The notes beneath the pieces are model-generated. The model worked only from the letters and a program-made list of their open reading frames with translations. It was not told the DNA's origin and did not search any database. A DNA stretch of 63,372 nucleotides, the filler included, from Craspedostauros australis (taxonomy: Eukaryota), in NCBI GenBank assembly GCA_030167865.1. It is 11 parts of 11 records of this genome, joined end to end, with 100 filler letters (N's around TTAATTAATTAA, not from the genome) between each part and the next. Parts side by side here need not be neighbours in the genome. Positions count along the whole stretch, not along the records: positions 53,008 to 56,168 come from JALAGF010001403.1; 10 more parts are not named here. One strand, written 5' to 3'. Position 1 is the first letter of the stretch. Every line of letters starts with the position of its first letter. A program made the translations under genes and the position numbers. This document shows, one piece after another, positions 24,756-60,072 of this stretch.

Positions 24756-27700
24756 TTAGGCGTCGGCGTCGGTGTTTCCGCCAGCTGTGGCGTTAGGATC
24801 GAAGCATGCCTGGCAGCAGCTGCATCCCATCAGACAGTCAGCGCGGATGAACGGGTTGTTGGCGCACATCTCGGTTGGGACGCCGCCGGTGAGCTGGGTG
24901 CCAAAGAGGTTCACGGTAGTCAGTGTTGGGATGCTGGCGAGCTCGACTGGGATGGCGCCCCGGGTCTCGGTGAACTGCACGCTGAACGTCTGCAGCTTCG
25001 TCAGCATTCCGAGTTCCGCGGGGAGCTCACCGGACAGGGGCGTCGAGTGGATCTCGAGGTCGGTGAGGCCCGTCATCAGACCGATGGACGGTGGGATTGG
25101 TCCGGAGAAGCCCACGTTGTTGTCGCTGGCGTAGTTGGTGTGAAGGCGGAGGACGACCAAGTTGGCGAGGTTGCCGATGTCTTCTGGGATGGTGTCGGTG
25201 AAGAAGTTGTTGGACAGATCAAGAAGAACGAGGCCGATGAGGTCGGTGAAGTTCTCTGGGAGACCACCGACGAACTGGTTGTTGGACAGATCGAGCATCT
25301 GGAGGTTCACCATGTTGCTCAAGGAATCAGGGATGGCACCAGTGATGCCGTTGGTTCTGAGGGAGAACTCGCCTGTGGCCATTGGATGCAACACGATGCA
25401 TGGGATTCATTCGAGGGAGAGCGAATAGTGTCAAGAAAGACAAAATAGGGAGCACAAAGTTAGTGCATGCGATAGTCATCGACAATGGAACAGAGTGCAA
25501 GTCATCTTTCAATCGTTCGTAAACCAAAGAGGAGACAGGTCCCGAGATTACGCCATTGCACTCTGCCATGCATTCCATCATGCATTCTATCATGATGCTG
25601 CGCTGCATCATACGCTACAGGTATCACTTACGGACGTTGACCAAATTTCCAATGCTCTCTGGGATGTTGCCGGTCAAGTCGTTTTCGCTCATATCGATCA
25701 CTTCCAGCAGTGTCATGGCGGTGATGGACTCTGGAATCGCCCCTTCGAGATTGTTGTTCTGGAGGGAGAGAACGACGAGGTTGGTGAGGTCACCCAAGGA
25801 CAGCGGCAGAACGCCTTCAAGGTTGTTGTCGTGCAGCACCAGACGCTCGAGGGTATCGACGAGGGTGATCTCGAATGGGATCGGTCCATTGAAGTTGTTG
25901 TCGTGGAGGATGAGGTCCTCGAGAGGGCCGTTGGCGATGCCGGCTGGGATCGCGCCCTCGAGGAAGTTGGCAGACAGATCGAGGATTCTCATCGAGTCGA
26001 GGTTGCCCATGCCATCTGGGAGCTCGCCAGCGAGGCTGCACTGCTGCAACTCGAGGTGGGTGAGTCCCGTCATGAGGGTGACGTAGGCTGGGAAATCCTG
26101 GGGGTCGAAGTTGTTGAATCCGAGTCTGAATCTCTGCATGTTGGTGGCCGCGCTGAAGTCTGGGATGGTGCCGGTGAAGCCATTGCCGTCCAGGTCAAGG
26201 CGGAAGAGCTGGTCGAGATCGGACATGCTGGCTGGCAAAGGTCCGTCCATTTGGTTTCTGGCCAATTGAAGGACTTGAAGGATGGCAAGGGTGGAGATGG
26301 TGCTTGGCATCTGTGAGTCGGAGAAGGTAACGGGGCATTGTGTGGATGGGTGCGTGGACATTGAGTAGAGAAGCGAGTGAGTGAGTGAGTGACCAGAAGC
26401 AATAGCTCAAGCGCAAACTATGACATGAATATTGAATATTGAATACACGAGACTCTGAAGACGTACCTCGCCGACGATGGCGTTGTCGTTGAGGTCGAGG
26501 ACGGCCAATCTCTCCATGTCGCCGATTTCATCAGGGAGGTTGCCTGTGATCTCGTTGTTGTCCAACCAAAGCACGAGCAAGTTGGTGAGCAATCCGAGCT
26601 CGGCTGGGAGGCTGCCTCCGATCTTGTTGTGGCCCATGGTCATGCGCTCTGCGGTATGAAAGTCGGTGCGTGAGATGGGGTGGTGAAAAAGAAAAAGAAA
26701 GAGATAACGGTGAGGTGGATGCTTCACATATTGACCGTGATGAGAGGCATGAACGCAAGATCGTGTGGATTGAGCATCCGACGCGTTGAACGTCACCACC
26801 TACGAGCAAGAGCAGCAGTTCACGTACCCAAAGCAACGAGGTCACCAACGGCAGCCGGGATTGGACCCACAAGGTCGTTGAAGTCCAAGACCAGGCTCTC
26901 CAGAGTGACGAGTGTGAAGAGCGAGTCTGGGAAGGCGCCTTCCAGGCTGTTGTCGGTGAGATCGAGGACGCGGATGGCCTTGAGTCCGGAGAAGTCTAGG
27001 GTGCTGAAGTCGCCAGTGATGAGATTCTCGTTGAGGTAGAGCTGCTCGAGGAATTCGAGCTGCAGGAGACCGGCGGGGATGGATCCGCTGATCTGGTTGT
27101 CGCCGAGGCTGACGCGCGTGAGGAAAGGGATCATGCCGAGGGCGTCTGGCAGAATGCCGTTGACGTTGTTGTCGTCCATGTCGATCTCGACGACGACGTT
27201 GAGGGTGGAGTTGGCGTCCGCCTGCAGTCGGCGGCGCATGCGGGCATCGGTGGCGCTGACGCAGCCGACGCCGACCCAGGCGCACTCATCCTCCTCGACG
27301 AGCCATCCAGTCTGATCGGCCCATTGGAACTGCGAGTGGAACCAGAAGGCGAGGAGCCCGAAGCGCTGTTGCAGGCGGATTCTGCTGTCGGCGGTGTCCG
27401 GCTCGAGCTGCAGCGGATCCTCCTGGGCCACCCACTTGAGGGCCAGGGTTTCCGGAGACTGCGGATCGGCGAAGGTGGCCTCTCCCGTCGGTGCCATCTC
27501 CTCCATGAAGGTCTGGAGCCTGGCGAGGCGCTCGGCGGCCTCGTCGGTGTCGGGGTCCCCGATGTCCGGGATGTCCTTGGGTGGATTGGTGGGCTCGTCC
27601 TCGGGTTCCTCGTCGACTGGGTCCGGTCGCACATCCGGATCTTCGATGGCGGAACCCGGGACATCCGCGGCGGCTCGCGAGGTGCTGGTGTTGTCTCCGA

Positions 27701-28088
27701 AGGCGTTGGTGCCGAAGCCCACGCCCAGGATGATGGCCACGACGCAGAGAAGGAGGACGCCCATGATCAGAGCGCGGCCGTTGCCTCTGCGCGGCTCGTC
27801 GTCGCTAATGTCGTCCTCGTTCTCGTCATCGCCATCGCCGTCTTCGTTCTCCTGGCTGAAGTCGTCTCCCATTCCGCGGTTGTTGACGGCCATGCTGGGC
27901 ATCACCTCCACGCTGCCGCTGTCGTCGACGTCCATCTCGACGCTGAGATCATCCTTGTTGCCTTTGGCGTTGTCGAACTCGGCCATTCCCTGGAACACCT
28001 TCAGCTGCTCCTCGTACGGAGGGATGCTGGGTGGTGGTGGTGGGAGTTCCACCGACGAATCGTCGCTCCCGTACTCGTAGTTGGCCAT
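24756..28088 (-). CDS. Type II membrane LRR receptor-like protein, 4 exons (28088-26828, 26648-26467, 26310-25632, 25372-24756)
   Basis: Acidic N-terminus, one TM (LIMGVLLLCVVAIILGVGFG), LRRNT-like W...ECAWVGVGC, many plant-type 24-aa LRRs and a Cys-rich end ADCLMGCSCCQAC. Three GT-AG introns keep the frame (phases 1, 0, 1). Confidence 0.88.
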
Positions 28089-28140
28089 GGTCGTCTTCTG
28101 TTGGTGCGAGCCTGTTCTGTTGCTCTCTCTCTCTCTCTCT

Positions 28141-28170
28141 ATTGGTATTGGTATTGGTATTGGTATTGGT
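28141..28170. repeat. (ATTGGT)5 microsatellite preceded by (CT)n, in the 5' leader of the LRR gene
   Basis: Direct reading. Confidence 0.9.
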
Positions 28171-29264
28171 AGAGGCGTGGGATGTGCTGTCGTTGTTCTG
28201 GATTGTGCACAAACACTGTTGTCCCTCTCTGCCCGCTTTCTTGCTTGCTTGACTTTCTTGCTTGACTTTCTTGCTTGCCTGTTTGTGTTCTTGCTTGCTC
28301 CAGCGCTTCGATCTGGTCAGCAACCTGCAACCTGCCTCACGCTTGTTTGTGTGAACGCCCGCAAGGAAATTGGTGATCCCCAAAGAGAAGCACCAACCAT
28401 GTTGATTCCACTCACATCACTGTGCGCGTCGTTCCCGTTCCCTCCAACAGCAATACCAACAGCAAACCACCTACGTTGAGTTCACTGCCAAAATTTTGTG
28501 ATGATGAATAAGAATGAATAATTCGAAATGCTCTGTGACACGGTGTGCGTGTCGTTAATGGTTATCCAGACGTTATTGTTGCCGAATTTCGTCATGTGTG
28601 TTCAGCAATGTTTCTCAACATAACGCATCCCTCCAATGCTCGCGCACTCCACCTGGCGAAACCGATCTTCCGAACGCAGCAATCGTGCAACGTCGGAGTA
28701 CCATTGGAATGCGAATGAGAAGATTCGCAACACCAATCTTGCATGGGTGCCTGACGCAAAGGCGGAAGCGCGGGACGGTGCACTTCGAGGAATGGGGTTC
28801 GCGTGTGTCGGCAACGCTCTCCTCTGCCCTGTCGATAGCAACTCAGATGACGATAGTTGCAGGTGCAAATAGTGTTCGCAAGAGTATTACCCACCAATGG
28901 AGCAGCAAACGAGCTGCTCCACAATCTACACAAGACACAGATGACGGAGGGTTGACACCATTGGAGGCCGCATCGGAGGAAGCAATCATGTGCGGAAACC
29001 ATTGCGCCAAAGCTGTGAATAACATTGTGAATCATCATCATGCGGTCATGCTCCATGCCGACAAACGTCGGAGTAGAAACATGAAGGAACAGCAACCCGG
29101 CATCTTCCCGTCCAGGCCCCTGTGCGATGTGGGAGGGGTGTTGATGACGAGGTGATGGATGGTTCTGTCTTCCCAGCATTGCATGTGAGAGTACCGTACA
29201 ACCTCGGCCAACCGAATCAGGATATCTTTGAGAGCCATCTGTTGTACAATACATACAACTGTAC

Positions 29265-29364
29265 NNNNNNNNNNNNNNNNNNNNNNNNNNNNNNNNNNNN
29301 NNNNNNNNTTAATTAATTAANNNNNNNNNNNNNNNNNNNNNNNNNNNNNNNNNNNNNNNNNNNN
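29265..29364. other. Artificial contig-join linker N44-TTAATTAATTAA-N44
   Basis: The same 100-bp structure recurs at about 30895, 32162, 33415, 47937, 49324, 52908, 56169, 60073 and 61866. TTAATTAATTAA gives stops in all six frames. Confidence 0.97.
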
Positions 29365-52764: not shown

Positions 52765-52821
52765 ATGAGCGCCGACATCAAGACCCAACCGACCAAGCCA
52801 AAAGGCGAAGGCGGCAAAGGC

Positions 52822-52859
<38 letters not shown>

Positions 52860-52907
52860 GGGGCGTTCCCCATTCGTCAAGACACCCAAGTTCGAGGGAG
52901 CCTGCCC
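52765..52907 (+). mobile_element. Probable N-terminus of a CoDi-like gag, truncated by a gap
   Basis: MSADIK...poly-N...KTPKFEGAC. A KFEG-x-C after a low-complexity start is what I recall for diatom copia gag. A structured leader lies upstream. Confidence 0.55.
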
Positions 52908-53007
52908 NNNNNNNNNNNNNNNNNNNNNNNNNNNNNNNNNNNNNNNNNNNNTTAATTAATTAANNNNNNNNNNNNNNNNNNNNNNNNNNNNNNNNNNNNN
53001 NNNNNNN

Positions 53008-54568
53008 CACACGTCTATTGGAGTACTATGCAGTGGTGAGCATATACTACTCACTCGATGGAGCCAAGTGGAACGACAAGATGGGCTTTCTATCAGATGC
53101 TGACGTATGTGACTGGCACTCTTCCTCTGGTGGTGTGACATGCGACAATGGCCATGTGGTACAAGTAGCTTTGGGTGATGAAGGCATGCGGGGCACGCTC
53201 GATCCAGCCCTGTATCATCTCTCACACCTTGAGAAATGGTCAATGAAAATGACTTCCAGCACTCGCGGACAGATCGATGGTATCATCTTCAGTCACATTG
53301 GCATGTTGAGTATGCTATCAGAGCTAACTCTAGTGTACATGGAACTGCGAGGCGCGTTTCCGTCAGAATTGTATCAACTTACACAATTGACACATCTTGA
53401 ACTGGATTCCAACAACTTCGCTGGACCACTTCCATCCAAGATTGGTCAGCTGTCAGCTCTCGCTTTTCTTGATTTGGGGTCCACTGATTTCACTGGGCAG
53501 CTTCCATCCGAGATTGGTCAGCTGACAGCACTCACCTTGCTTGATCTAGAATGGACCAAATTCACTTGGCGGCTTCCATCCGAGGTTGGTCAGCTGACAG
53601 CACTCACCTTTCTTGATTTGGGGCCTACTGATTTCACTGGGCAGCTTCCATCCGAGATTAGTCAGCTGTCAGCTCTCGCTTTTCTTGATTTGGGAACTAC
53701 TGACTTCACGGGACAGCTTCCATCCCAGATTGGTCAGTTGACAGCACTCACCTTTCTTGATCTAGAATCGACCAAATTCACTGCACAGTTCCCATCTGAG
53801 ATTGGGCAGCTGACAGTATTGCAACATCTTGACCTGGAACGGACGCGCTTCACTGGGCGGTTTCCAACTGAGATTTGTCAGTTGACAGCACTCGCGTCTC
53901 TTGACCTGGATTTCACCAATCTCATTGGACAGATTCCATCCGAGATTGGTCAGCTGTCAGCACTCACCTTTCTTGATTTGGGGCCTGCTGATTTCACTGG
54001 GCAGCTTCCATCCGAGATTGGTCAGCTGACAGCACTCACCTTTCTTGATCTAGAATCGACCAAAATCACTGGGCGGCTTCCATCCGAGATTGGTCAGCTG
54101 TCAGAGCTCACCTTTCTTGATCTGGGATCGACCAACTTGACTGCGCAGTTCCCATCTGAGATTGGTCAGCTGACAAAATTGCAACATCTTGACCTGGAGC
54201 AGACGCACTTTACTGGGCAGCTACCATCCGAGATTGGTCAGCTGGCAGCTCTCGCTTTTCTTGATTTGGGGCCCACTGATTTCACTGCGCAGCTTCCATC
54301 CGAGATTGGTCAGCTGACGGCTCTCGCCTTTCTTGATCTGGAATGGACCAAATTTTCTGGGCGGCTTCCATCCGAGATTGGTCAGCTGACAGATCTCACC
54401 TATCTTGATCTGGAATCTAGTGGCTTCACTGGGCAGCTTCCATCTGAGATCGGCCAGCTGACAGCGCTCACCTTTCTTGATCTAGAACGGACCAACTTCA
54501 CTAGGCCGCTTCCAACTGAGGTTGGTCTCCTCACACCATTGGAAATAATCAGGATCCCTGGAATCTAA
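53008..54568 (+). CDS. LRR protein (5'-truncated by gap) with 15 near-identical 72-bp repeats
   Basis: LRRNT-like YYSLDGAKW...VCDWH...GVTC, followed by plant-type LRRs with consensus LPSEIGQLTALTFLDLxxTxFTGQ. Confidence 0.88.
53429..54508 (+). repeat. 15 x 72-bp coding tandem array
   Basis: cttccatccgagattggtcagctg (with minor variants) recurs every 72 nt from 53429; the next unit starts at 54509. Confidence 0.95.
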
Positions 54569-56027
54569 TGCAGCGCCATTGTCCCAACACAACTAGCCAA
54601 ACTTATGCTCTGTTTATTGTTCGTTGGAAATGATGTGCCGTTGAGGCATCCCTCATGAGATTTTTCGTGCCTCACAATGCAGGGCCAAGTGCCGATCGAA
54701 CAGACCCAATAATTGGCGATTTTTGGCAATGCTTGGCAACAGTTGGCTACACATTTTGGGCCCGTTTGTCCCACCCAATCCAACATCTCTTCGCATCAAT
54801 CTAAATTTATGAGCCAGGGCCATCCAGGCAAGTATTAACGTTACCTCGTTGTTACCACTGTCTCATCGATCTCGATGTGTTTGTTGACCCCCTTGGTGTG
54901 GTTTCGCCATCTGACGACGGACAGCCGGGTATTGTTTTGATGATATGTTTGGCGACACGTGGGATTCTACAGGGGTCCGGTAGGATCTGGCCTCTTTTTT
55001 CAAGAAATTCGACCCTCCATCTTTGAAGTCTCCGCGCTGAGCATTCTTTGGCTCAATCTGTACAATAGATATCATTTCAGAATTCCATCGCCAAGGTGGT
55101 CACAATCATGTGGTCTATATTATGTTTGAGTGCCATGGTGTGTTGGTATGCTTGCTTTTAGGAGCCCCCCGAGTGAGTCGCAACGATATTTGACCACTCG
55201 GATCCCCATTTCGGTGGCAAGTTTGGAGAACTCAGGTTCCAATGTTTGCGTCATCGTGACGTCAGCGAGGGTTGGAACGCTTGTTTGGGGCGACCGAAAC
55301 AGCAGCGCATGACAAAACACAGGCAAAAAGCGTCCGTGAATGATGAGGTGCTTGACGGATCACATCAGTGCTCGCCGAGCAAGACAGTAACAGCCACCAA
55401 ACTTCAGAATTGCGTATATAAACGATATATTATGCCACAATGGCAAGATGAGTACAGGAAGATGCACATGAGCGAAGTCCGGAGAGTTTGACTACGGTTG
55501 ATGCTGTTTTTTCCTGTTGTAATTCGGGACTTACGTAGAACGTATACCAGAATCTACACTGCAGCTTTTGTGATCCAAACATATCCAATAATCGGCAAGA
55601 ACGTTGGCGACAGCTGTTTGTTACAGGCACAAGGTATCGAAGATCAAAAGTTAGAATGTCCATCTCGAAGTATTGGTCGACTCGCTCGAGGGGGCTTTTG
55701 CCTCGGAACCGGTCGTCAGTGGGCTTTCCCCACTGATTCGTGACAGCACACGAATTCCAACTAAGTCAAAGTAGTCGGTTGTGTTGGGTCGTGCTCTTGA
55801 CGTAACACGAATGAAATCTTTCACGACAAAACGTGGGCGGGAGTTGAGAAACTGTTCTCAGCAAACTCTCCTACTGGGAAAAGGCATGGAATTAGAAGTA
55901 AACAACGGATTATGAGCTCAAGGCACGAGCCATTTACCTCTCATGTGGTCTCTACTCTGCTGCGTACGATTCAGCTGCAAGTGCCCAGTCTAACGCTCAA
56001 ATAACCGGTAATAACGTCCGTATCTGC

Positions 56028-56168: not shown

Positions 56169-56268
56169 NNNNNNNNNNNNNNNNNNNNNNNNNNNNNNNN
56201 NNNNNNNNNNNNTTAATTAATTAANNNNNNNNNNNNNNNNNNNNNNNNNNNNNNNNNNNNNNNNNNNN

Positions 56269-59061: not shown

Positions 59062-60072
59062 ATGCTGGATGTTTCGAACCAACAACTCCTTGATGCTGCC
59101 AAGGCAGGTGATGTGTCTGTGTTAAAAGAATGGAAGAAGCAGAAGGAAGGTGTTGATGTCAACAAGGTTGCAGACAGCGATGATGACACTCCTCTTCATC
59201 TGGCATGCGAAAATGGCCATCTGGAGTGTGTCAAGTACCTCATCGAATCTGCGAAGGCCGATGCCAACTGCAAAGACGAAGATGGTAATACTCCTCTTCA
59301 TCTGGCATGCTCCGAAGGTCATTTCGAGTGTGTCCAGTACCTCGTCGACTCTGCGAAGGCCAACACCAACTGCGAAGACGAAGATGGTAATACTCCTCTT
59401 CATCATGCATGCTCCGAAGGTCATCTCGAGTGTGTCAAGTACCTCGTCGACTCTGCGAAGGTCAACGCCAACTGCAAAGACAACCATGGTTCCACTCCTC
59501 TTCATGATGCATGCGAATATGGCCATTTCGAGTGTGTCAAGTACCTCGTCGACTCTGCGAAGGCTGATGCCAACTACAAAAACAACAACGGTGACACTCC
59601 TCTTCATCGCGCATGCTCCGAGGATCATTCTGACTGCGTCAAGTGCCTCATCGAATCAACCAACGCTAACATCGATATCGACATCAAGAACAACGACAAC
59701 AGAACACCCCTCGATGTGATCGATCCAACACATCAGATCAACATGATGAGATCAATCATGGAGCGTCTCAGTCACCTGAGCTCACAACTACAGCTTCACA
59801 AACGAAGCATCACAAGCACTGCCACAGCAACACCCAAGCACAACAAGTCGAACATCAACACAACGACCAACATCAGCATCGGCCAAGATCGTTGCAGCGC
59901 TGTTCGTACCGAGGCGAACGCAGACATCGTTTTCCTGTGTGGACAAGGCGACCGACAACAACCGATCAAGGCAAACAGCGGAGTCCTTGTGGTCACCGTC
60001 CCATCGATTCAAACATTGATCGACTCTGGAATCCACCATCTATCTTTGACCAAGCCATCATCCCCACCGTCA
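59062..60072 (+). CDS. Ankyrin-repeat protein with possible BTB/POZ start, 3'-truncated by gap
   Basis: Five 34-aa repeats TPLHxACxxGHxECVKYLVDSAKAxxNCKD. ADIVFLCG...IKANSGVLVV resembles a BTB N-terminus. Confidence 0.88.

What the first reader, a model, noticed from the sequence alone, without database searches (positions are those of the whole stretch)
53429..54508. LRR array built from shuffled 72-bp cassettes with a fixed framework and variable concave-face residues: candidate diversifying recognition system
Seen: 15 exact-period units with an almost invariant DNA framework (cttccatccgagattggtcagctg). The residues after LDL vary: GSTD, EWTK, GPTD, GTTD, ESTK, ERTR, DFTN, GPAD, ESTK, GSTN, EQTH, GPTD, EWTK, ESSG, ERTN. 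The two residues before LDL also vary (AF/TL/TF/QH/AS/TY). Variants recur as nucleotide modules in non-adjacent units, including synonymous codons: gatttgggN..ctga in units 1, 3, 4, 8 and 12; gatctagaat.gaccaaa in units 2, 5 and 9; caacatcttgacctgga in units 6 and 11. Unit 10 looks chimeric. Known: these positions form the ligand-binding beta-face of LRRs, and repeat shuffling diversifies lamprey VLRs and Ectocarpus LRR-ROCO genes. Inference: intragenic recombination or conversion generates a receptor repertoire (immunity or mate/self recognition) in a diatom.
Basis: partly seen in the sequence, partly recalled or inferred. Interest (0 to 1): 0.75.

Follow-up and report, generated by a model that had tools for sequence, protein, structure and literature searches.

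The report
Reshuffling LRR surface-protein family in diatom
This diatom gene belongs to a young family of probable cell-surface binding proteins whose near-identical repeats are duplicated, lost and swapped by ordinary recombination, giving many different binding faces; it resembles fungal non-self-recognition genes, but no immune or mating role is shown.

Summary
In detail: 15 exact 72-bp LRR units with the listed variable residues and recurring nucleotide modules. The gene, cut at its 5' end by an assembly join, belongs to a young clade of 16 distinct copies with arrays of 3 to 53+ units. Full-length paralogues are single-pass membrane proteins: cytosolic N-terminus, helix, Pro/Ser/Thr stalk, cap, LRR array, no kinase. 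The clade has lost the ancestral Cys C-cap. Units are mosaics (10 of 11 arrays; window p=0.025-0.045), and caps recombine between genes (p=0.0002). The framework is under purifying selection (omega 0.40; 1 stop against about 10 expected). Face codons run at omega 1.1-1.8, but positive selection is not established, and within the window array alone face and framework ratios are alike (0.54 vs 0.46). There are no orphan cassettes (177 of 177 hits lie in arrays) and no introns, so this is not VLR- or ROCO-type. It works like fungal high-internal-conservation (HNWD) repeat arrays. Function is untested, and short-read assembly may distort some arrays. Unchecked notes of this scan report similar hypervariable LRR families in other algal DNA.

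The parts
52908..53007 (.). Assembly linker (N run with a fixed 12-mer); the gene's 5' part (cytosolic segment, membrane helix, stalk) is missing beyond it
   Evidence: contig G000:C1403 is 3161 bp
53009..54568 (+). Open frame of 519 codons plus stop: C-terminal part of a probable type II membrane LRR protein, no introns
   Evidence: Pfam LRR families only apart from one weak DUF hit; full-length paralogue P0002
53009..53155 (+). N-terminal cap of the LRR domain (helix, Trp and two-Cys motif); boundary approximate
   Evidence: nearest Atlas clusters are diatom proteins
53156..53428 (+). Divergent, fixed first LRRs, not part of the homogenised array
53429..54508 (+). Array of 15 x 72-bp plant-type LRR units, mean 77% nucleotide identity; Thr (13 of 15) and no Asn at the ladder position; variable codons 12, 13, 17, 18 and 20
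54509..54568 (+). Fixed, shortened terminal repeat ending at the stop shared by the young clade
54569..54606 (+). Non-coding relic of the next ancestral LRR; the Cys-rich C-cap that follows in older paralogues is gone here
56169..56268 (.). Assembly linker ending the contig

Best explanation
The array is a coding minisatellite in one member of a young subfamily of diatom single-pass membrane LRR proteins. Because units are 73-81% identical, misaligned homologous recombination (unequal crossing-over and gene conversion, within and between loci) adds, deletes and splices units. The constant framework supplies the crossover homology and is itself homogenised. Old variable modules on the concave face are recombined into new orders. 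Selection keeps the frame open and the solenoid core intact while tolerating, and perhaps favouring, change on the face. The product is a heritable, unprogrammed repertoire of extracellular binding surfaces on a stalk, most likely for recognising or adhering to variable biotic partners (bacteria, parasites, viruses or other cells). Shown: array, family, mosaicism, unit-number variation among paralogues, purifying selection on the framework. Inferred: membrane topology of this copy, the recombination mechanism, allelic hypervariability, the ligand.
For: Family: 22 cap hits at 88-100% identity, collapsing to 16 distinct caps (15 groups plus gapped C2100), with arrays of 3 to 53+ units. Architecture: a hydrophobic helix in 14 of 16 open frames printed, with more Lys/Arg before than after it in 12 of those 14, followed by a P/S/T stalk. 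Mosaic test p<0.05 in 10 of 11 arrays. Against clonal simulations with site rates kept, the observed z was reached in 3/60 (window), 0/60 and 0/60 runs. Exact internal duplications of 445, 254 and 143 nt in three paralogues. Cap recombination between genes: PHI-like p=0.0002, and 3 of 91 pairs at the permutation floor. All 15 window units have CAG at codon 7, while CAA dominates in 9 of the 10 other arrays. Omega is 0.40 in the framework against 1.09 and 1.23 in the variable blocks. One stop, in the last unit of C5722, against about 10 expected. C813/C814 share identical 508- and 496-nt ends but no identical inner unit, with 14 vs 12 units; other consecutively numbered pairs are mostly collinear at 95-99%. 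Older relatives have unit identity of only 0.44-0.59.
Against: Within the window array pN/pS is 0.54 at face sites and 0.46 in the framework, because synonymous diversity rises with it. Face omega of 1.78 (LRT 7.05) lies within the range of neutral simulations (0.83-2.41; 1 of 9 higher). The minimum-change count showed no contrast either (0.40 vs 0.43). Rare variants do not depart from neutrality in any site class (biased upward). Cap omega is 0.58-0.8, weak constraint. The PHI-like test was significant in only 6 of 10 arrays. Exact tracts of 72 nt or more shared between arrays are few (5 gene pairs) and no longer than in caps, so recent unit exchange between genes is not shown. The C-cap is lost, and some copies are broken (C853, C2061). 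No cytosolic signalling domain was seen. No ligand or expression data.
Confidence: 0.6

Rival explanations
1. Relaxed or near-neutral expansion. A gene that lost its C-cap amplified in transposon-rich DNA. Its repeats became unstable like any minisatellite, and the face varies only because exposed residues are unconstrained. The protein is a non-specific spacer or adhesin, or is decaying.
For: Cap omega 0.58-0.8. Face omega is compatible with 1. Stop in the last repeat with a decaying C-cap relic. Copia gag/RT or DDE fragments lie near 5 of the family contigs scanned (C5088, C5722, C6501, C430, C5575). The stalk and N-terminal segments also vary by simple tandem repeats. A larger near-identical ankyrin-array family exists in the same genome, so repeat homogenisation is not LRR-specific here.
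Against: Open frames through arrays of 20-50 units, 1 stop against about 10 expected, and length changes within arrays in frame. Framework omega 0.40. Variation is concentrated at codons 12, 13, 17, 18 and 20 (entropy 2.2-3.4 bits), far above convex-side positions 3, 4, 7, 9 and 10 (0.2-1.1 bits).
Confidence: 0.25
2. The unit order, number and chimeras are largely artefacts of short-read assembly through a tangle of similar repeats.
For: Fragmented assembly (6734 contigs). N gaps inside two arrays and contigs that end in arrays. Redundant overlapping contigs. Illumina assemblies omit, create and chimerise such repeats in Podospora (10.1101/2025.01.13.632504, passages).
Against: In the window array the longest exact internal repeat is 55 nt and no two units are identical (minimum 4 differences). 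Contigs of run X1 reproduce two multi-unit stretches exactly, including unit 10. 274 distinct units among 296 cannot come from misjoining a few. A four-unit block is collinear with paralogue C5088.
Confidence: 0.1
3. A programmed diversification system of VLR or brown-algal exon-shuffling type: dedicated donor cassettes are copied into an expression locus.
For: Constant framework with variable face modules; sub-unit mosaicism.
Against: All 177 genome-wide framework matches lie at unit starts in the arrays already held, none on the opposite strand. Genes are complete and intronless. No flanking signal or incomplete recipient gene was seen.
Confidence: 0.04

Closest known systems
Fungal HNWD/NWD and other high-internal-conservation (HIC) NLRs of Podospora (PMC1805685, abstract and outline; PMC13449251, passages)
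   Same: Multigene family of about 10-20 loci; near-identical intronless repeats with a few hypervariable surface positions; variable repeat number; recombination within and between loci; transposon-rich context.
   Different: LRR rather than WD40/TPR/ANK. Extracellular domain on a membrane anchor rather than a cytosolic NLR; no NACHT/NB-ARC or death domain. Positive selection and function are shown there, not here.
Diatom transmembrane LRR proteins without kinase (Pseudo-nitzschia MRP2/MRM2, PMC6261938 passages; expanded Seminavis LRR families, PMC7335047 passages; P0095, P0119)
   Same: Membrane helix plus LRR domain and no kinase. P0095 and P0119 show the same order of helix, stalk, cap and plant-type LRRs. 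At least 135 cap-like matches in this genome. A Seminavis LRR protein (P0271) also has near-identical repeats.
   Different: This clade has homogenised units (0.73-0.81 against 0.44-0.59 identity in older relatives), Thr for the ladder Asn in most arrays, up to 53+ repeats and no Cys C-cap. Orthology to MRP2/MRM2 was not tested.
Ectocarpus LRR-ROCO genes (PMC3341825, passages)
   Same: 24-residue, 72-nt plant-type LRR units, shuffled, with variable concave-face sites, in a stramenopile.
   Different: There each LRR is an exon, with spare LRRs in introns and a ROC-COR GTPase. Here there is one uninterrupted frame, no spare units and no GTPase.
Lamprey/hagfish VLRs (PMC3308329, passages)
   Same: LRR face diversity built from modules joined through short homology.
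   Different: No incomplete germline gene and no flanking cassette library; the diversity seen is among complete genes.
Plant LRR receptor ectodomains (RGFR1, FLS2, ERL1, HAESA-type)
   Same: Best fold matches of the model, together with SHOC2; 24-residue repeat class.
   Different: Opposite predicted topology (N-terminus inside), no kinase, 22-38% identity in the listed matches.

Membership tests
Fungal HNWD / HIC-NLR | High internal conservation of repeats | tested here: met
   Mean unit identity 0.73-0.81 (nt) and 0.66-0.76 (aa) in 13 of 13 arrays. The paper's Psim >= 0.7 metric itself was not computed, so this is borderline.
Fungal HNWD / HIC-NLR | Repeat recombination within genes | tested here: met
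   10 of 11 arrays in the mosaic test, controlled; 6 of 10 in the PHI-like test
Fungal HNWD / HIC-NLR | Repeat exchange between genes | tested here: inconclusive
   Caps recombine between genes; shared array tracts do not exceed what shared ancestry allows
Fungal HNWD / HIC-NLR | Repeat-number polymorphism among alleles | tested here: inconclusive
   C813/C814, 14 vs 12 units between identical ends; may be one looped array; needs long reads
Fungal HNWD / HIC-NLR | Positive selection at a few surface sites | tested here: inconclusive
   omega 1.72-1.78, but neutral simulations reach 2.41; no contrast within the window array
Fungal HNWD / HIC-NLR | NACHT/NB-ARC ATPase and effector domain | tested here: not met
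   No such Pfam hit in the window ORF or C5830; full-length frames read as helix-stalk-cap-LRR
VLR | Incomplete germline gene with non-coding intervening sequence | tested here: not met
   Uninterrupted frames
VLR | Flanking library of donor LRR cassettes | tested here: not met
   177 of 177 framework matches at unit starts within arrays; one pattern without mismatches, so diverged orphans could be missed
VLR | AID/APOBEC deaminase-dependent somatic assembly | not tested
   No deaminase search was run; no clonal data
Brown-algal LRR-ROCO | One LRR per 72-nt exon, with spare intronic or antisense LRRs | tested here: not met
   Units abut in one frame; 0 reverse-strand matches
Brown-algal LRR-ROCO | ROC-COR GTPase domain | tested here: not met
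   Frames stop in the last LRR; no Pfam hit
Diatom kinase-less transmembrane LRR proteins | Single membrane helix before the LRR domain | tested here: met
   14 of 16 paralogue frames by hydropathy; not testable for the window copy, whose 5' end is missing
Diatom kinase-less transmembrane LRR proteins | Diatom-type cap and plant-type LRRs, no kinase | tested here: met
Diatom kinase-less transmembrane LRR proteins | Cys-rich C-terminal cap (seen in older paralogues, P0095, P0119) | tested here: not met
   Lost in the young clade; relic behind the stop in C4705, C5852 and C853
Diatom kinase-less transmembrane LRR proteins | Mating-type-biased expression as for MRP2/MRM2 | not testable with these tools
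   No suitable RNA data

The most novel reading that the evidence does not exclude
A diatom has independently evolved an HNWD-like, allele-hypervariable repertoire of cell-surface recognition proteins. Its LRR faces are under diversifying selection and are reshuffled even within clonal cultures by the high mitotic interhomolog recombination reported for diatoms (10.1101/2020.11.08.373134, abstract), giving a population-level variable receptor or decoy system against parasites, viruses or bacteria. The parallel ankyrin family may be a cytosolic counterpart.
Probability: 0.25. Interest if true: 0.75.

Novelty: new variant of a known kind. Interest (0 to 1): 0.45.

Why it matters
How diatoms recognise parasites, viruses, bacteria or mates is largely open, and their many membrane LRR proteins have no assigned ligands. 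A compact family whose binding face is visibly being reshuffled, with older non-shuffling relatives in the same genome as controls, gives a defined test case: long-read amplicons across strains and clones can show whether a unicellular alga keeps a fast-changing surface repertoire. The mechanism itself (concerted evolution of near-identical repeats) is known from fungal NLRs. What is new is its occurrence in an extracellular LRR clade of a diatom, together with loss of the C-cap. Four library searches on diatom LRR proteins listed no title or abstract describing this. The library lacks most subscription papers, including a Phaeodactylum LRR survey that I recall (Schulze et al. 2015) and could not find.

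Tried and rejected
Word-based homologue search with the cap region: 0 of 152 candidates. Cap plus array region returned generic plant, bacterial and diatom LRR proteins at 27-51% identity and no close orthologue, so no cross-species comparison of this clade was possible. No RNA holder is listed on record; one run (X1, RNA guessed) holds 0.31 of the words; X2 and X3 gave nothing. X1 cover falls to zero just after the stop (54705-55128); this is not used as evidence of transcription. Singleton-variant dN/dS is biased upward by saturation of synonymous states and was uninformative. Minimum-change counts per codon saturate likewise. A shared transposon-like boundary around the genes was sought: 3' homology ends 100-140 nt after the last repeat (600 nt between C4705 and C5852) and 5' homology is patchy, so carriage by one transposon is not supported. 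Splicing around the stop was considered: most copies have lost the downstream cap altogether, and an X1 piece across it differs there by a stop-to-stop change. The structure model is single-sequence (pLDDT 65; residues 1-107 below 50), so only strand positions in the repeats were used. One letter comparison at 53146 had an offset error and was discarded. Rows dropped before unit counts: 5 redundant contigs (C1678, C1374, C430, C3351, C2692), 2 older paralogues, 3 units with non-72 spacing, and units with N or a stop (terminal units plus the last C5722 unit); C853 was also left out of the omega fits. No earlier notes exist for this genome.

Full report
1. Observation. The array is real. TRF finds period 72, 15.7 copies, no indels. 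The first 24 nt of a unit differ from the stated framework at 0-5 sites. Diversity peaks at nt 34-39 and 49-60 (0.39 and 0.45, against 0.11 in the framework). The frame starts at an assembly linker: the gene lies on a 3161-bp contig, so its neighbours in the window are not evidence of linkage and its 5' end is missing. No two units are identical (minimum 4 differences), and the longest internal exact repeat is 55 nt. Contigs of public run X1 match two multi-unit stretches exactly (210 and 248 nt), and these stretches are specific to this gene. X1 may derive from the same strain; 8 of its 119 pieces were shown.

2. What the gene is. The cap region has 24 genomic matches: 22 at 88-100% and 2 at about 76%. 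The 22 collapse to 16 distinct caps. Full-length paralogues read: a short cytosolic segment, one hydrophobic helix, a Pro/Ser/Thr stalk of 6-244 residues in the young clade, a helical pre-cap and Cys-containing cap, a few fixed divergent LRRs, an array of 3 to 53+ units, and a fixed terminal repeat. A helix was found in 14 of 16 frames printed, with basic residues mostly on its N-terminal side. Type II topology is my inference from the positive-inside rule. The cap's nearest Atlas clusters are diatom proteins. Two relatives with the same layout came from the HMMER search, one with an MMETSP label, and another hit is labelled Cylindrotheca. The wider family has at least 135 cap-like matches in this genome. 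The single-sequence model places a beta-strand at unit positions 13-15 and often a second short strand at 18-21, so variable positions 12, 13, 17, 18 and 20 lie on or flank the concave face. The best fold matches are plant receptor ectodomains and SHOC2.

3. What is derived in this clade. Older relatives have ordinary divergent repeats (mean unit identity 0.44-0.59), and the two closest (C5830, C3235) end in a Cys-rich C-cap. The young clade has unit identity 0.73-0.81 and mostly Thr at the Asn-ladder position (no Asn in 8 of 13 arrays). It has a stop in the last repeat; the old cap survives as a decaying relic behind the stop in C4705, C5852 and C853 and is replaced in the others examined. 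Homogenisation, ladder change and cap loss thus occur together in this clade.

4. Shuffling. A two-parent mosaic explains units better than codon-permuted controls in 10 of 11 arrays (window p=0.045, and 0.025 on repeat). Clonal simulations with the same site rates reached the observed z in 3/60, 0/60 and 0/60 runs. A PHI-like test was significant in 6 of 10 arrays. Paralogues contain exact block duplications of up to 445 nt; these could partly be assembly products. Caps recombine between genes (p=0.0002). Exchange of array units between genes is plausible but not shown: window units 5-8 match C5088 units 4-7 at 18 of 288 differences, the same as their cap divergence (24 of 355), which fits inheritance. 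C813 and C814 have identical 508- and 496-nt ends but 14 vs 12 units, with inner units 3-12 nt apart. Four of six other neighbouring-contig pairs compared are collinear at 95-99%, so these may be two alleles with rebuilt arrays. A looped single array cannot be excluded, and short-read assemblies are known to mangle such repeats (10.1101/2025.01.13.632504, passages).

5. Not a cassette system. A framework pattern has 177 matches genome-wide and 0 for the reversed control (only 100 were listed). The contigs I held contain exactly 177, all at unit starts and on the gene strand. There is no donor library, no incomplete recipient gene and no exon-per-repeat structure, which are the defining features of VLR loci (PMC3308329, passages) and Ectocarpus ROCO genes (PMC3341825, passages).

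6. Selection. The frame is protected: one stop, in the last array unit of C5722, against about 10 expected from at least 332 distinct codon changes, and the only complete odd-length units inside an array are in-frame 63-bp ones. Codon-model omega is 0.40 in the framework, 1.09 at codons 11-14 and 1.23 at codons 15-20. Face-only fits give 1.78 (LRT 7.05) and 1.72 (LRT 3.04), but neutral simulations gave 0.83-2.41, with 1 of 9 above the observed value. Within the window array pN/pS is 0.54 on the face and 0.46 in the framework, because synonymous diversity is also doubled there. That fits old modules in a homogenised frame as well as selection. The cap is weakly constrained (0.58-0.8), and some copies are broken. 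The face is therefore at least free to vary; positive selection is unproven.

7. Mechanism and comparison. The best reading is unprogrammed unequal recombination and conversion among near-identical repeats, producing a heritable set of stalked extracellular binding surfaces (220 distinct face strings in 296 units). This is how the Podospora het-d/het-e family works (PMC1805685, abstract; PMC13449251, passages), but the gene is not an NLR. By architecture it belongs with diatom kinase-less membrane LRR proteins, some of which are mating-type biased and were proposed as receptors or adhesins (PMC6261938, passages; PMC5485032, passages). LRR expansions are documented in Seminavis (PMC7335047, passages), and a Seminavis protein has near-identical repeats too. 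Diatoms show frequent mitotic interhomolog recombination (10.1101/2020.11.08.373134, abstract only), which could drive change in clonal growth; that step is speculation. No supplements were read.

8. Verdict. A real, well-supported shuffling LRR family, and a new variant of a known evolutionary design. The immune or mating function and diversifying selection remain hypotheses. Unchecked notes of this scan describe similar hypervariable LRR families in other algal DNA; they are not independent support. Interest 0.45.

Noticed in passing
window 59070-59700 (+), contig C1404: Ankyrin gene with near-identical 102-bp repeats (4.7 copies, 82% matches). It has 131 matches on several dozen contigs from only 40 of 236 candidates scored, including a run of about 6 kb on C3870: a second, larger family of homogenised repeat arrays.
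   Followed up: partly
window 26823-28316 (-): Another membrane helix-stalk-cap-LRR gene of the older type, cut at its 3' end in this frame.
   Followed up: no
window, ten N runs carrying a fixed 12-mer (e.g. 29265-29364, 52908-53007): The window is a concatenation of separate contigs joined by an artificial linker; gene neighbourhood across these joins is meaningless.
   Followed up: yes
L031:1-3060 (-), contig C4705: An older-type membrane LRR gene lies directly downstream of a young-clade member, in the same orientation.
   Followed up: no
C1374 and C1627 (L039, L045): These two young-clade genes carry the N-terminus and stalk type of older paralogue C5830 and are 94.7% alike there, while their caps differ by 11.5%: domain-level chimeras.
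   Followed up: partly
C2061, C2100, C5287, C5088, C5830, C6501: A similar short sequence beginning TGT, resembling an LTR start (my reading, untested), lies at or after the 3' end of 6 of 9 genes checked and truncates C2061.
   Followed up: partly
window 52765-52907 (+), contig C1402: Start of an open frame with a poly-Asn run that looks like a retrotransposon gag start (recalled resemblance, untested); it is on another contig and not part of the LRR gene.
   Followed up: no
C5111 / C430 / C3389 / C5404: Two genes with caps 12% apart share an identical 475-nt 3' end, continued by two different contigs: recent exchange or an assembly join.
   Followed up: partly
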